Assembly (NCBI GenBank): GCA_000004985.1
Contig: GG739261.1
Length of the DNA stretch: 2,443 bases
Direction: 5' to 3' (one strand)
Source of the DNA: Naegleria gruberi
Lineage: Eukaryota
The position numbers and the translations under genes are program-made. The notes under the pieces are model-generated. The model was not told where the DNA came from and did no database searches. It saw only the letters and a program-made list of their open reading frames with translations. This document shows, in pieces, positions 1 through 2,443 of this stretch. Each line of letters starts with the position of its first letter. The first letter of the stretch is position 1.

Positions 1-525
1 AGCTCTTTTGGTGATTAAAAAAGGATCTTCAGAAAATCGTACTGCCTCAATCAAGGTTTCATCCGAAAACATTGATAAATCTACAAATCTCAAGTAATAA
101 TAAGGAACTACTTTAACCGCCTGATTCAATATTTCTGGATCATGTTTGAAAGGAGAAAATTCAATAACTCTTCCATTATTTAAAATAGCTGCCAAATTAA
201 TGGCCCTGTCATTCATTAGTGTTTCTGGTAGAAATTTCAATATCATTCCTCTTGTTGATACTATATCCATCACAAATTCATAATCATTTTTCAAACTTTC
301 AGATGCAAGATTGAAAAAATTCGAATCTCTCTGCACAGCCAATGAGATAATTTCCTTATCTGAAGAGAAATGAGGAGCTACATAATTGTAAGCAGTACCA
401 TCCTGCTTAACTGCCTCCAAAACTGTTTCCCTATCTCGTTTCAATTCTTCAGAGGCATAGTAAATGGCAAGGCCTGAATTTTTCACAGCTTGCAAAACTA
501 ATTCCTTATCATTTTTCAGTTCCAT
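1..525 (-). CDS. DUF4116-like tandem-repeat protein, N-terminal 175 codons, ORF continues past window position 1 (3'-partial)
   Basis: The reverse strand reads with no stop from ATG (plus 525-523) down to position 1. The translation is MELKNDKELVLQAVKNSGLAIYYASEELKRDRETVLEAVKQDGTAYNYVAPHFSSDKEIISLAVQRDSNFFNLASESLKNDYEFVMDIVSTRGMILKFLPETLMNDRAINLAAILNNGRVIEFSPFKHDPEILNQAVKVVPYYYLRFVDLSMFSDETLIEAVRFSEDPFLITKRA. It contains about seven repeats of roughly 26 aa with the pattern L-K-x-D-x-E-x-V-L-x-A-V-K-x-x-G-x-A-L-x-Y-A-S, matching my memory of Pfam DUF4116. The six-frame track does not list it because there is no stop inside the window. The true start is uncertain (see findings). Confidence 0.8.
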   Translation of the reverse strand, partial: MELKNDKELVLQAVKNSGLAIYYASEELKRDRETVLEAVKQDGTAYNYVAPHFSSDKEIISLAVQRDSNFFNLASESLKNDYEFVMDIVSTRGMILKFLPETLMNDRAINLAAILNNGRVIEFSPFKHDPEILNQAVKVVPYYYLRFVDLSMFSDETLIEAVRFSEDPFLITKRA

Positions 526-565
526 AGAAACGAATTTCAAATAATCTCCATTCTGAGATGGTACT

Positions 566-663
566 AAGTGACGGTGAAACGGGGGACGGATGAGACGGAG
601 AACACTCAGTTTCTTACTACAGACGGGAGAAGAGCATCCGCTTAATACTGTTGACGGTAAACC
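566..663. repeat. GC-rich (about 50% GC) GACGG island, left arm of a degenerate inverted repeat pair
   Basis: Five same-strand GACGG pentamers lie at 570-574, 585-589, 594-598, 622-626 and 653-657. The terminal direct repeats TGACGGTGAAAC (569-580) and TGACGGTAAACC (652-663) bound them. The surrounding sequence is about 30% GC. The reverse complement of 559-606 aligns block by block with 2008-2100. Confidence 0.6.
617..636 (-). promoter_or_regulatory. Polypyrimidine tract followed by AG on the coding strand upstream of gene 1, candidate splice-acceptor-like signal (cis 3' splice site or trans-splice site)
   Basis: The minus strand reads GATGCTCTTCTCCCGTCTGTAG (plus 638-617). It is followed by a second C/T-rich stretch, TTCTCCGTCTCATCCGTCCCCCGTTTCACCGTCACTTAG (plus 604-566). 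The next AGs on that strand are at plus 566-565 and 556-555, just before the ATG at 525. Plus-strand purine richness makes the whole left island pyrimidine-rich on the gene strand. Confidence 0.25.
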
Positions 664-697
664 AAAATGGAAAATGCACAACCTTAGTAACACCGAT

Positions 698-730
698 AAA
701 TTGAATGATACATTTAATAAAATTGAATTT
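698..730 (+). promoter_or_regulatory. Two same-strand AAATTGAAT motifs 21 bp apart (698-706 and 720-728, the second extending to AAAATTGAATTT at 719-730)
   Basis: The 9-mer is exact and is repeated a third time at 1629-1637. It contains the octamer AAAATTGA, which is known as a Mimiviridae early-promoter element. This orientation would drive plus-strand transcription into the spacer. Confidence 0.3.
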
Positions 731-941
731 TCCTATTATATTAAATAGATTCTCTTGTGTTGTTTGGCTTGAATTGTTGGAACGAAAACCAAGCAAGGTA
801 TTACGAGAGTTTGGTTGATTTTTTGAAGCAAGGTTTGTTTGTTAAGTTAAGAATATGTGAAAAAATATTTCAACATCTAGTACGTGATGTACTTTGATGA
901 TTCTTCGAGTGGTTTCACATCCGTAAGCTGCCAAACTTTCA

Positions 942-984
942 CATCATCATCTCAACATCATCTAAATAGTAGTAATAGTAGTAA
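942..984. repeat. Microsatellite-like block: (CAT)3 CATCATC plus a tandem (TAGTAGTAA)x2
   Basis: CATCATCATC lies at 942-951 and CATCATC at 956-962. TAGTAGTAATAGTAGTAA at 967-984 is two exact 9-bp units. Confidence 0.7.
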
Positions 985-1130
985 TTTTTATTATTGGACT
1001 TTCATCATAAAATAGTAAATCAATTTTTGGATTATAATTTTTCAAGTTGGTAAACCATCATCGGAACACTCACCAACCGTCATCATAGATATATTTAATA
1101 TAGTAGAATAGTATGGGTGATTTCTATGTC

Positions 1131-1361
1131 TTGGAAATATCTTTATTTTGGTGAAACTCAACATTTTACTAAAATCATCATCACTGTTGAATCCATTGGA
1201 AAGATTGGAAAACTATTAATGTAGGATTGTTGGAAATGGTCAATAGTAGCATAGTAAATTTTGAACGGTGGATTTTCATCAAGTTTTGATAGGGATAGGT
1301 ACATGTGAATTTTAAAAAGTACATGTACCATTACTCAACATGTACTTCACCAACTTGGAAA
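1131..1361. repeat. Cluster of five TTGGAAA heptamers, including an adjacent tandem pair ATTGGAAAGATTGGAAAA
   Basis: TTGGAAA occurs at 1131-1137, 1196-1202, 1205-1211, 1230-1236 and 1355-1361, all on the plus strand. Base composition predicts well under one copy. Confidence 0.45.
1299..1345. promoter_or_regulatory. Three spaced copies of the palindromic core GTACATGT(AC), candidate binding-site array
   Basis: GTACATGTG lies at 1299-1307. GTACATGTAC at 1319-1328 is a perfect 10-bp palindrome. ACATGTAC lies at 1338-1345. Centre-to-centre spacing is about 20 bp, roughly two helical turns. AAGTACATGT (1317-1326) and ACATGTACTT (1339-1348) form a larger inverted pair around a 12-nt spacer. Confidence 0.35.
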
Positions 1362-1628
1362 CTTTCTTCTAGTACTGTTGTTTAAATCACTAATAAACAC
1401 CATATTTAATATCAGTTTTTCATTATTTTGTGTTTTGGCTTGGAGAGAGATTTCTAGCCAAACCTTTTATGATTCACTCCTTCAAGAGTGATTCAAAAAT
1501 TATCAAACTCATTGTGAACATTACACAATGATATTAAAATAATAAAATTCTTGTTTTTTCTTTTAATTTCATTTCTTTCACCTTAAATCGAACAATTAAC
1601 CTTATTTCCTTAAACATCATTAAGATCA

Positions 1629-1639
1629 AATTGAATTTC
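1629..1639 (+). promoter_or_regulatory. Third copy of AAATTGAATTT, an 11-mer identical to 720-730
   Basis: The 11-mer match with 720-730 is exact. It sits at the 5' edge of the weak plus-strand ORF 1631-1855, whose TTG start lies inside the motif. Confidence 0.3.
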
Positions 1640-2004
1640 AAAGATGACCAACTTTTTCAACATCTACACCTTATAGGGATCACACTCATATCAATTAATC
1701 CATATTTTTCATTTTCAGTAAAAAATCAAAATTTGAACTTTCCAAAGTTTACTATTTACCTGAATTGTTTGAGAAGGAAACTTCTCAAAAAAAGAAGGGT
1801 AGTTTCACAACAGTGTTTTAATCAACTAAGTCAAATTATTTCATGTCATTCTTAAATTTGAGACAGAAAGAGAGAAATCTTTGATTTTAGTGAATATTCC
1901 ACAACAGAGGTGTTGTGTTTGTTTGTGAATTTATTTCCATTTTAAATTTTTCCATTTTGGATTTATTATAGAATGATACATTAGTATTTCCCTTAATTCC
2001 ATTC

Positions 2005-2102
2005 TTGCTCCGTCTCTTACTGCTGACTGTCCCGTTTGACAGCTTATTACATCTGACGGATCCCGTTAGACGGGATTTACCGTCACACCGTCAATTAGTA
2101 TC
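2005..2102. repeat. GC-rich (about 48% GC) GACGG/CCGTC island, right arm of the inverted repeat pair
   Basis: It contains CTCCGTCTC (2008-2016), CCCGTTTGAC (2031-2040), GACGG (2055-2059, 2069-2073), CCGTCAC (2080-2086) and CCGTCAATTAGTA (2088-2100). The first island, read in reverse complement, has the same blocks in the same order: CTCCGTCTC, CCGTCCCCCGTTTCAC, CGTCAC, TTAGTA. Confidence 0.6.
2054..2085 (-). terminator. Interrupted GC-rich hairpin in the 3' flank of gene 2, candidate 3'-end formation or termination signal
   Basis: The outer stem pairs TGACGG (2054-2059) with CCGTCA (2080-2085), 6 bp. The inner stem pairs ATCCCGT (2060-2066) with ACGGGAT (2070-2076), 7 bp. The loop is TAG and there is a TTA bulge on the 3' side. 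It starts 47 nt downstream of the gene 2 stop on the coding strand. Minus-strand AATAAA copies follow further downstream at plus 1962-1967 and 1930-1935. Confidence 0.35.
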
Positions 2103-2131
2103 TCCTCCTCCATTCTCTTTGATATATTCCA

Positions 2132-2443
2132 TCATGAGCTCTTTGTTATTCGAATATTTCCTGACCATGTTCTTGGAATATTATTTATCCCAAAGAGTTT
2201 CAAATAGGTCCGTAACCATACAATATCATCTGATAAATCCTCAAGGTTGATCTCATCACTATAATGATGAATAAATACTTGATTAATTAAATCTCTTTCG
2301 AATTTCAATTCATTTGGAATAAACTCAATGGCTGAAGGACAATTTTTCAGAGTTTCCAATATTATTTCTCTATCAAATCTCAATTTTGCATTGGCATATT
2401 GAATCACCATTCCGTTATGTTTACAAAGTTTCAGCACCACTTC
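2132..2443 (-). CDS. DUF4116-like repeat protein, C-terminal 103 codons plus TGA stop at 2134-2132, 5' end outside the window
   Basis: The ORF track gives a minus-strand ORF at 2132..2440. Its first M is really a GTG read as a start, and the upstream codon 2443-2441 (GAA) is also open, so the gene continues off the edge. The translation E-VVLKLCKHNGMVIQYANAKLRFDREIILETLKNCPSAIEFIPNELKFERDLINQV shows two DUF4116-type repeat units. It is followed by a tail of about 45 aa without repeats and then TGA. Confidence 0.8.
   Translation of the reverse strand, partial: EVVLKLCKHNGMVIQYANAKLRFDREIILETLKNCPSAIEFIPNELKFERDLINQVFIHHYSDEINLEDLSDDIVWLRTYLKLFGINNIPRTWSGNIRITKSS

What the first reader, a model, noticed from the sequence alone, without database searches (positions are those of the whole stretch)
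559..2104. ORF-free 1.5-kb AT-rich spacer bounded by GC-rich GACGG islands in inverted orientation
About 1.6 kb between two same-strand repeat-protein genes carries no credible ORF. Its two edges are islands of about 95 bp and about 50% GC in a background of about 30% GC. The reverse complement of the left island (559-606) aligns with the right island (2008-2100) through four ordered blocks: CTCCGTCTC, CCCGTTT(C/G)AC, CCGTCAC and (A/C)(A/T)TTAGTA. The extended outer ends GGTACTAAGTGACGGTG and GATACTAATTGACGGTG match at 15 of 17 positions. TGACGGT(G/A) occurs four times, twice on the plus strand in the left island and twice on the minus strand in the right island. This architecture fits terminal inverted repeats of a non-autonomous DNA element (MITE-like) about 1.5 kb long that lacks its own transposase. 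A second possibility is paired gene-boundary elements, a 5' leader and a 3' hairpin, that share a protein- or RNA-binding motif. I cannot find a clean target-site duplication because the repeat similarity fades gradually into gene 1 sequence.
Basis: seen in the sequence. Interest (0 to 1): 0.75.

Follow-up and report, generated by a model that had tools for sequence, protein, structure and literature searches.

The report
Transposon insertion splitting a DUF4116 gene
The 1.5-kb "spacer" is a non-coding mobile DNA element with inverted-repeat ends that inserted into the start of a repeat-protein gene and duplicated 9 bases of it; this is an ordinary kind of event, though the element's family is not identified.

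Summary

- **Ends:** The element spans 555-2107 (1553 bp). Its 28-nt terminal inverted repeats match at 22 of 28 positions.
- **Target-site duplication:** A perfect 9-bp direct repeat, CTCCATTCT, lies directly outside both ends (546-554 and 2108-2116). None of 2000 dinucleotide shuffles reproduced this arrangement.
- **Gene restored:** Deleting the element and one repeat copy joins the flanks in frame on the minus strand. The product, MMEYIKENGDYLKFVSMELKNDKE..., is a clean DUF4116 repeat unit. Its ATG overlaps the TGA stop of the upstream gene.
- **Consequence:** The region is therefore not intergenic. The element interrupts codons 7-10 of the downstream gene.
- **Interior:** It has no ORF under five genetic codes and no Pfam, NCBIfam, PHROG or Rfam match.
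- **Binding-site-like arrays:** Both ends carry RACGG motifs at mirrored distances from the tips, as expected for transposase binding sites.
- **No relatives:** I found no other copies and no autonomous partner in the viral, genome or metagenome collections. Family and host remain unassigned.

It is a new member of a known kind, of modest interest.

The parts
1..545 (-). 3' part of the interrupted DUF4116 gene ('gene 1'). It runs off the left edge of the window. The first ATG left after the insertion is at 525-523.
   Evidence: Translation is open over 1-699 on the minus strand. DUF4116 match: E = 4e-74, six stretches.
546..554 (.). Target-site duplication, left copy: CTCCATTCT (AGAATGGAG on the coding strand, codons (E/Q)-N-G).
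   Evidence: Identical 9 of 9 to 2108-2116, not extendable on either side, and directly abuts the inverted-repeat arm.
555..582 (+). Left terminal inverted repeat: GAGATGGTACTAAGTGACGGTGAAACGG.
   Evidence: 22 of 28 positions complementary to 2080-2107; longest inverted repeat in the window.
555..663 (+). Left subterminal region, about 49% GC, with six RACGG motifs all on the + strand at 570, 578, 585, 594, 622 and 653 (15, 23, 30, 39, 67 and 98 nt from the tip).
664..2004 (.). AT-rich interior (28% GC), non-coding, no recognisable cargo.
   Evidence: 29-47 stops per frame, and the longest open stretch is 105 codons under the standard code. No long ORF under codes 4, 6, 10 or 15 either. No significant Pfam, NCBIfam or PHROG match in six frames. 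No Rfam match near any gathering score. Weak period-3 signal.
2005..2107 (-). Right subterminal region, about 47% GC. Five RACGG motifs on the - strand lie 15, 23, 40, 71 and 93 nt from the tip, mirroring the left end. Two more on the + strand (2055, 2069) help form a local hairpin at about 2050-2081.
   Evidence: Fold of 2005-2107: -25 to -27.6 kcal/mol, z about -2.
2080..2107 (-). Right terminal inverted repeat. On the minus strand it reads GAGGAGATACTAATTGACGGTGTGACGG.
2108..2116 (.). Target-site duplication, right copy: CTCCATTCT.
2091..2135 (-). Severed 5' stub of gene 1. ATG at 2135-2133, then MMEYIKENG, followed by GGDTN and a TGA stop (2093-2091) read from the right inverted repeat. 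Another in-frame ATG lies upstream at 2168-2166.
   Evidence: The stub covers unit-profile positions 3-10.
2132..2443 (-). Upstream DUF4116 gene ('gene 2'). It runs off the right edge of the window. Its TGA stop (2134-2132) overlaps the ATG of gene 1, giving ATGA at 2135-2132.

Best explanation
Positions 555-2107 are one copy of a non-autonomous, ORF-less DNA transposon of the cut-and-paste type, with terminal inverted repeats. It inserted into the 5' end of a DUF4116 gene.

Shown directly:
- It has 28-nt imperfect inverted termini.
- A perfect 9-bp duplication of the target lies immediately outside them.
- Removing the element and one duplicate restores an uninterrupted ORF whose first repeat unit spans the junction.
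- The interior encodes nothing recognisable.

Inferred:
- A transposase encoded elsewhere in the genome recognises the termini and the mirrored RACGG arrays in the first 100 nt or so of each end.
- It pairs the two ends and integrates the element through cuts staggered by 9 nt in the target.
- Repair of the gaps produced the CTCCATTCT duplication.

Consequence for the host: gene 1 is cut after codon 9-10. A 14-codon stub remains, ending at a TGA inside the right inverted repeat. The remaining 186 or more codons are still open. Either the insertion is recent, or the truncated gene is still expressed from an internal or element-borne start. The 9-bp duplication and the GAG termini fit Mutator/IS256-type or IS903/IS4/IS1-type transposases best, but the family is not established.
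For: - **Termini:** 22 of 28 positions match.
- **Duplication:** CTCCATTCT is identical at 546-554 and 2108-2116, abuts the arms with zero offset and cannot be extended.
- **Chance test:** Among all direct repeats of 7 nt or more in the window, this is the only one with more than 14 of 28 inverted matches just inside it. None of 2000 dinucleotide shuffles gave a repeat of 9 nt or more abutting 22 or more of 28 inverted matches.
- **Restored ORF:** Excision gives MMEYIKENGDYLKFVSMELKNDKELV... in frame.
- **Repeat-unit profile:** I built a profile from the window's other repeat units. The restored unit scores 23.2 bits over profile positions 3-25. The two severed halves cover only positions 3-10 and 7-25, and they overlap exactly at the duplicated codons.
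- **Pfam:** The DUF4116 score is 244.4 bits for the unrestored 233-aa reading (1-699, minus strand) and 253.3 bits for the restored 191-aa protein.
- **Homologues:** The restored unit aligns with the first repeat unit of ten homologues, consensus K-x-N-G-x-x-L-x-x-A-S.
- **Empty-site-like arrangement:** The restored gene's start overlaps the upstream stop (ATGA). In homologue loci, tandem DUF4116 genes lie only 12-56 nt apart.
- **RACGG arrays:** 16 observed against 2.0 expected. They lie at mirrored distances from the two tips, 15/15, 23/23, 39/40, 67/71 and 98/93 nt, and face inward at both ends.
- **No coding capacity:**
- **Literature:** 9-bp duplications with short imperfect inverted repeats are documented for Mutator-like elements (PMC2725143, PMC6446971). 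IS903-group elements give 9-bp and IS256 elements 8-bp direct repeats (PMC3281130). Non-autonomous IS derivatives mobilised in trans are documented (PMC3129680).
Against: - Only one copy is seen. No second copy, related element or autonomous partner turned up in the viral, genome or metagenome collections. Neither mobility nor family is shown.
- The duplicated 9-mer encodes the conserved (E/Q)-N-G of the repeat unit. Some similarity between two repeat units would therefore arise without transposition. However, other units in the window share far fewer bases at this position.
- The termini differ at 6 of 28 positions.
- If the host is prokaryotic, 1.5 kb is long for a cargo-less non-autonomous element.
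- A TSD-like motif, TCCATTYT, also recurs inside the element. This is unexplained.
Confidence: 0.85

Rival explanations
1. It is a decayed autonomous insertion sequence or transposon. The element once encoded its own transposase in the 1.3-kb interior, and that ORF has since eroded beyond recognition.
For: A length of 1553 bp with 28-nt inverted repeats and a 9-bp direct repeat is the typical size and layout of a complete bacterial insertion sequence. Examples are the IS256-family ISPaes3 (1393 bp) and IS903-group elements (about 1050 bp, 9-bp direct repeat) in PMC3281130. GC skew changes sign across the interior.
Against: The six-frame translations give no Pfam or NCBIfam hit even at E up to 5, and only one PHROG hit of unknown function at E = 0.042. 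Each frame carries 29-47 stops. Yet the 9-bp duplication is still perfect, and the interrupted host gene keeps 186 open codons in 31%-GC DNA. Complete erasure of a transposase gene is hard to reconcile with such well-preserved flanks.
Confidence: 0.08
2. It is an intervening sequence removed at the RNA or DNA level: a self-splicing or spliceosomal intron, a transposon-derived 'introner', or a ciliate-type eliminated sequence that uses the 9-bp repeat as a pointer. The gene would then remain functional.
For: The segment interrupts an ORF. Precise removal between the 9-bp repeats restores the frame. The host ORF is undamaged.
Against: No group I or group II intron or other Rfam family matches at E up to 10. 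No position within the 9-bp repeat gives GT...AG or AT...AC borders. The stub meets an in-frame TGA 15 nt into the element. All six Gln codons are CAA or CAG, and no in-frame TAA or TAG occurs in 295 codons, so nothing points to a ciliate genetic code. The ATGA start/stop overlap and the bacterial contexts of homologues point to a compact prokaryote- or virus-like genome.
Confidence: 0.04
3. The islands are paired gene-boundary signals, a 3' hairpin of gene 2 and a 5' leader of gene 1 sharing a protein- or RNA-binding motif. Alternatively, the whole arrangement is a chance similarity.
For: The right island folds into a local hairpin just downstream of gene 2. RACGG motifs cluster at both islands.
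Against: Gene 1 does not begin at the left island. Its start codon and first nine codons lie to the right of the right island, and the ORF is rebuilt only when everything between the 9-bp repeats is removed. Chance is excluded at p < 5e-4 for the direct-repeat-plus-inverted-repeat arrangement alone.
Confidence: 0.02

Closest known systems
Non-autonomous Mutator-like elements (eukaryotic MULEs) and their prokaryotic relatives of the IS256 family
   Same: The 9-bp target-site duplication fits: MULEs give 8-11 bp and maize Mu gives 9 bp (PMC6446971, PMC2725143, PMC2774946), while the IS256-family ISPaes3 gives 8 bp (PMC3281130). Short imperfect inverted repeats occur in some members, for example 20-38 bp in TvMULEs and 22 bp in Mutyl (PMC2725143). 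Non-autonomous copies are mobilised in trans. These elements often insert in or near genes. The termini start with G-A-G, which from memory resembles Mu termini; that is a lead, not a test.
   Different: There is no transposase to classify and no sequence similarity to any known member. Most MULE inverted repeats are hundreds of bp long. The arrays of 5-nt RACGG motifs are not a described MULE feature.
Bacterial IS derivatives without a transposase: MITEs and mobile insertion cassettes (MICs)
   Same: They are bounded by IS-type inverted repeats, flanked by direct repeats, lack a transposase and depend on a cognate IS elsewhere in the genome (PMC3129680, PMC3281130). The compact gene arrangement around the insertion is prokaryote-like.
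   Different: MITEs are much shorter than 1553 bp. MICs carry passenger genes, whereas this interior has no ORF and no recognisable RNA gene.
Ac/Ds-type (hAT) and other eukaryotic elements with subterminal transposase-binding repeats
   Same: Many copies of a short CG-containing motif (here RACGG, including AAACGG) fill the first 100 nt or so of both ends in inverted arrangement. From my own knowledge, the Ac transposase binds AAACGG-type subterminal motifs.
   Different: hAT elements make 8-bp duplications and have short termini of the type YARNG. Here the duplication is 9 bp and the termini start with GAG.
IS903 group (IS5 family), IS10/IS50 (IS4 family) and IS1
   Same: The 9-bp direct repeat matches the IS903 group (PMC3281130). 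That IS10, IS50 and IS1 also give about 9 bp rests on my own knowledge. The inverted repeats are of similar length, 15-30 bp.
   Different: There is no transposase. The terminal sequences were not compared with ISfinder, which these tools do not include. Those families are not known for multiple subterminal repeats.

Membership tests
Class II DNA transposon with terminal inverted repeats, non-autonomous copy | Terminal inverted repeats at both ends | tested here: met
   Arms 555-582 and 2080-2107 match at 22 of 28 positions and form the longest inverted repeat in the window.
Class II DNA transposon with terminal inverted repeats, non-autonomous copy | Target-site duplication of fixed length directly outside the inverted repeats, with the uninterrupted target restored on removal | tested here: met
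   9 of 9 identical: CTCCATTCT at 546-554 and 2108-2116. None of 2000 shuffles reproduce the arrangement. The in-frame DUF4116 unit is restored.
Class II DNA transposon with terminal inverted repeats, non-autonomous copy | No transposase gene inside the element | tested here: met
   No ORF longer than 74 aa and no long open frame under five genetic codes. No Pfam or NCBIfam hit, and only one PHROG hit of unknown function at E = 0.042.
Class II DNA transposon with terminal inverted repeats, non-autonomous copy | Several copies with different flanks, and an autonomous partner with the same ends in the same genome | not testable with these tools
   The source genome is not in any searchable collection. 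The terminal patterns gave no hits or only chance hits.
MITE (strict sense) | Miniature size, a few hundred bp at most | tested here: not met
   The element is 1553 bp.
Mutator / MULE / IS256 superfamily | Target-site duplication of 8-11 bp, typically 9 | tested here: met
   The duplication is 9 bp. Ranges are taken from PMC6446971 and PMC2725143.
Mutator / MULE / IS256 superfamily | MURA- or IS256-type DDE transposase, or inverted-repeat similarity to a member that has one | tested here: not met
   There is no transposase relic: the Pfam library, which includes the Transposase_mut and MULE models, gave no hit, and NCBIfam gave none. Similarity of the termini to known members could not be tested because no TE or IS reference library is available.
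hAT superfamily (Ac/Ds-like) | 8-bp target-site duplication | tested here: not met
   The direct repeat is exactly 9 bp and cannot be shortened without breaking its contact with the inverted repeats.
Group I / group II self-splicing intron | Conserved catalytic RNA core | tested here: not met
   No intron family appears among Rfam matches at E up to 10 on either strand.
Spliceosomal intron / introner | GT-AG (or AT-AC) borders and an open reading frame across the splice | tested here: not met
   No such border is available within the 9-bp repeat. An in-frame TGA lies 15 nt into the element.
Ciliate internal eliminated sequence | Germline-limited segment removed between short direct-repeat pointers, in a ciliate genome | tested here: inconclusive
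   A pointer-like 9-bp repeat is present. But no in-frame TAA or TAG occurs in 295 codons, and all six Gln codons are CAA or CAG. Homologue contexts are bacterial. Somatic versus germline status cannot be tested.

The most novel reading that the evidence does not exclude
The host may be a compact prokaryotic or viral genome, as the ATGA gene overlap and the bacterial contexts of homologues suggest. In that case this would be the first seen member of an undescribed family of unusually long (1.5-kb) mobile elements with no ORFs. Both ends carry arrays of RACGG sites. The conserved interior might carry a non-coding RNA or a regulatory cargo rather than being filler.
Probability: 0.1. Interest if true: 0.55.

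Novelty: new member of a known kind. Interest (0 to 1): 0.27.

Why it matters
It corrects the annotation of this locus. There is no 1.6-kb intergenic region and no pair of gene-boundary signals. Two abutting DUF4116 genes are present, and the second is knocked out or truncated by a mobile element.

The exact boundaries, the 9-bp duplication and the RACGG arrays give a precise probe for finding further copies, empty sites and the responsible transposase once the source genome is available. Beyond that, it is a routine example of insertional gene disruption.

Tried and rejected
- **Other copies, first scan.** The 15-mer TACTAAKTGACGGTG gave 110 hits in viral contigs. All are chance. None resembles the window by blastn. 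The only locus with an inverted partner, L094, has unrelated flanks.
- **Other copies, stricter patterns.** A 23-mer covering both ends gave no hits in the viral, genome or metagenome collections. The relaxed TACTAANTGACGGTGNNACGG gave one genome hit and two metagenome hits, with no partner, unrelated flanks and 42-47% GC. It gave none in viral contigs.
- **Source and orthologous empty site.** The best homologue of gene 1 is only 38-45% identical. The C-terminal part of gene 2 has no homologue at all. A protein-based scan of viral contigs found nothing. An empty-site comparison was therefore impossible.
- **DNA similarity.** The window has no match to phage records and the element has none to plasmid records.
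- **Longer inverted repeats.** A gapped alignment of 260 nt from each end was not significant beyond the first 28 nt.
- **Hidden coding capacity.** I tried alternative genetic codes 4, 6, 10 and 15 and six-frame searches against Pfam, NCBIfam and PHROGs. Nothing significant emerged.
- **Structured RNA.** Rfam at E up to 10 gave only sub-threshold chance hits, the best being mir-5365 at 24.8 bits against a gathering score of 70. A sliding-window fold scan gave a best z of -3.6 among 80 windows. Promoter and terminator scans were at shuffle level.
- **Right island as a separate small insertion.** I asked whether 2006-2107 is its own insertion flanked by TTCCATTCT and CTCCATTCT. Its two ends are not inverted repeats, and the tip-like similarity at 1980-1991 is marginal: score 19 against a background maximum of 17.
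Full report
**Anatomy of the window.** Both protein-coding stretches lie on the minus strand. Positions 1-558 translate without a stop into six DUF4116 repeat stretches (E = 4e-74). Positions 2132-2443 give the end of another DUF4116 protein, which stops at TGA 2134-2132. Between them no ORF exceeds 74 aa. GC content is 21-35% except in two islands: 49% at 551-650 and 47% at 2001-2100.

**The inverted ends.** The longest inverted repeat in the window joins 555-582 to 2080-2107, with 28 nt at 79% complementarity. A gapped alignment of 260 nt from each end is not significant beyond these 28 nt: score 38 against 28.9 +/- 4.7 for block shuffles. What the islands share instead is a short motif. RACGG occurs 16 times in the window against 2.0 expected (0 of 200 shuffles reach 16), and 13 copies lie in the two islands. 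At the left end six copies are on the + strand, 15, 23, 30, 39, 67 and 98 nt from the tip. At the right end five copies are on the - strand, 15, 23, 40, 71 and 93 nt from the tip. The layout is mirrored. Two more copies in the opposite orientation at the right end help form a local hairpin. TGACGGT occurs five times, not four; the extra copy is at 1076-1082.

Directly outside both arms lies the same 9-mer, CTCCATTCT, at 546-554 and 2108-2116. It is identical at 9 of 9 positions. It cannot be extended on either side and sits at zero distance from the arms. The window contains 393 direct repeats of 7 nt or more. This is the only one with more than 14 of 28 inverted matches just inside it. None of 2000 dinucleotide-preserving shuffles gave a direct repeat of 9 nt or more abutting 22 or more of 28 inverted matches.

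**What excision restores.** On the coding strand, the sequence upstream of the right end reads ATG ATG GAA TAT ATC AAA GAG AAT GGA G. It is in a different frame from gene 2. Removing 555-2116, which is the element plus one copy of the 9-mer, joins this in frame to ATTATTTGAAATTCGTTTCT... The product is MMEYIKENGDYLKFVSMELKNDKELVLQAVK..., continuing into the long ORF.

- I built a profile from six other repeat units in the window. It aligns the restored unit over positions 3-25 at 23.2 bits.
- The two severed halves align only over positions 3-10 and 7-25. They overlap at the duplicated (E/Q)-N-G codons.
- The Pfam DUF4116 score is 244.4 bits for the unrestored 233-aa reading (1-699, minus strand) and 253.3 bits for the restored 191-aa protein.
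- In an alignment with nine homologues, the restored unit matches their repeat unit, consensus K-x-N-G-x-x-L-x-x-A-S, across the junction.

The ATG of the restored gene (2135-2133) overlaps the TGA of gene 2 (2134-2132). The two genes originally abutted. In bacterial contigs that carry homologues, tandem DUF4116 genes lie 12-56 nt apart. The "1.6-kb spacer" is therefore an insertion into codons 7-10 of the downstream gene, not an intergenic region.

**What the element carries.** I could recognise nothing.

- Each of the six frames has 29-47 stops. No long ORF appears under codes 4, 6, 10 or 15.
- Six-frame translations have no Pfam or NCBIfam hit at E up to 5, and only one PHROG hit at E = 0.042.
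- Rfam at E up to 10 returns only sub-threshold hits.
- A fold scan found one modest hairpin cluster at 1441-1560 (z of -2.9 to -3.6).
- Promoter-like and terminator-like sites are at shuffle level.
- The period-3 signal is weak inside the element compared with gene 1.

**Mechanism.** Three things are shown: the inverted termini, the 9-bp duplication and the restoration of the target. From them I infer the standard DDE cut-and-paste pathway. A transposase supplied in trans binds the termini and, probably, the mirrored RACGG arrays. It pairs the ends and joins them to target strands cut 9 nt apart. Repair of the gaps duplicates the 9 nt.

The perfect duplication and the intact 186-codon remainder of gene 1 in 31%-GC DNA argue for a recent insertion. 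They also argue against the idea that the interior is a long-decayed transposase gene. The severed stub ends at a TGA inside the right inverted repeat. The remainder could still be translated from ATG 525-523. It could also start from GTG 693-691 or TTG 681-679, in a frame that stays open through the left end. That is speculation.

**Comparison with known families.**

- *Mutator-like elements and IS256:* a 9-bp duplication is characteristic of Mutator-like elements (8-11 bp; maize Mu 9 bp). Some of them have short imperfect inverted repeats, 20-38 bp in TvMULEs and 22 bp in Mutyl (PMC6446971, PMC2725143, PMC2774946). The related prokaryotic IS256 family gives 8 bp in ISPaes3 (PMC3281130).
- *IS903 group:* these elements give 9 bp (PMC3281130).
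- *Non-autonomous IS derivatives:* MITEs and MICs mobilised in trans are known (PMC3129680).
- *hAT elements:* arrays of subterminal motifs recall Ac/Ds-type elements (my own knowledge), but hAT elements make 8-bp duplications, so membership fails.

With no transposase and no reference library of termini, the family stays open. At 1553 bp the element is not a MITE in the strict sense.

**Rivals.** An intron or an eliminated sequence is unlikely.

- There is no intron RNA core and no GT-AG border within the repeat.
- An in-frame TGA lies 15 nt into the element.
- No codon reassignment is visible in 295 codons.

Gene-boundary signals are contradicted by the restored ORF. Chance is excluded.

**Limits.** The source sequence is absent from the viral, genome and metagenome collections, and its proteins are absent from the protein collection. 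Looser terminal patterns return only chance matches. I could not test copy number, empty sites or the autonomous partner.

**Verdict.** This is an ordinary class of event: a non-autonomous DNA transposon disrupting a gene. The element family is so far unmatched. I rate it a new member of a known kind, with modest interest.

Noticed in passing
window 547-554, 664-671 (-), 1936-1943, 1951-1958, 1998-2005, 2109-2116: TCCATTYT occurs six times against 0.75 expected (0 of 200 shuffles reach six). Two copies are the target-site duplication. The other four lie just inside the GC-rich islands in mirrored orientation. TTCCATTCT at 1997-2005 matches the duplication at 8 of 9 positions. The duplicated target therefore resembles a second subterminal motif of the element, ARAATGGA. 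This could reflect target choice or chance in AT-rich DNA; I could not decide.
   Followed up: partly
window 2132-2168 (minus strand): The TGA stop of gene 2 and the ATG of the restored gene 1 overlap as ATGA (2135-2132). The gene 1 frame is already open and repeat-like upstream (YSKNMVRKYSNNKELMMEY), with another in-frame ATG at 2168-2166. The true start may therefore overlap gene 2 by about 35 nt. This compact arrangement looks prokaryote- or virus-like.
   Followed up: partly
window 546-717 (minus strand): The gene 1 reading frame stays open for about 61 codons upstream of the insertion point, through the left end of the element. Possible GTG (693-691) and TTG (681-679) starts lie in it. 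An element-host fusion protein or read-out expression is conceivable.
   Followed up: no
window 1441-1560 (+): Three neat hairpins, including a 9-bp stem (TGATTCACTC...GAGTGATTCA) and an 8-bp stem (TCATTGTG...CACAATGA). Folding z-score is -2.9 to -3.6, the best of 80 windows tested, with no Rfam match. This is marginal after multiple testing.
   Followed up: partly
window 2135-2300 (minus strand), the C-terminal ~55 aa of gene 2: After its last DUF4116 unit, gene 2 ends in a non-repeat tail (…HHYSDEINLEDLSDDIVWLRTYLKLFGINNIPRTWSGNIRITKSS). The 103-aa query had no homologue in the 5.8-billion-protein collection.
   Followed up: partly
L111 87-3017 and 4694-8914; L112 3-1456: The nearest homologues (about 40% identity) sit as tandem DUF4116 gene pairs in bacterial contigs. 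One of them (33% GC) lies next to conjugation genes: a TraG-like coupling protein, DUF4133 and P-loop_TraG. DUF4116 genes may travel with mobile elements.
   Followed up: no
window 965-985: A small perfect tandem repeat, AATAGTAGT x 2.3, lies inside the element, flanked by CATCATC-rich direct repeats at 942-968.
   Followed up: no
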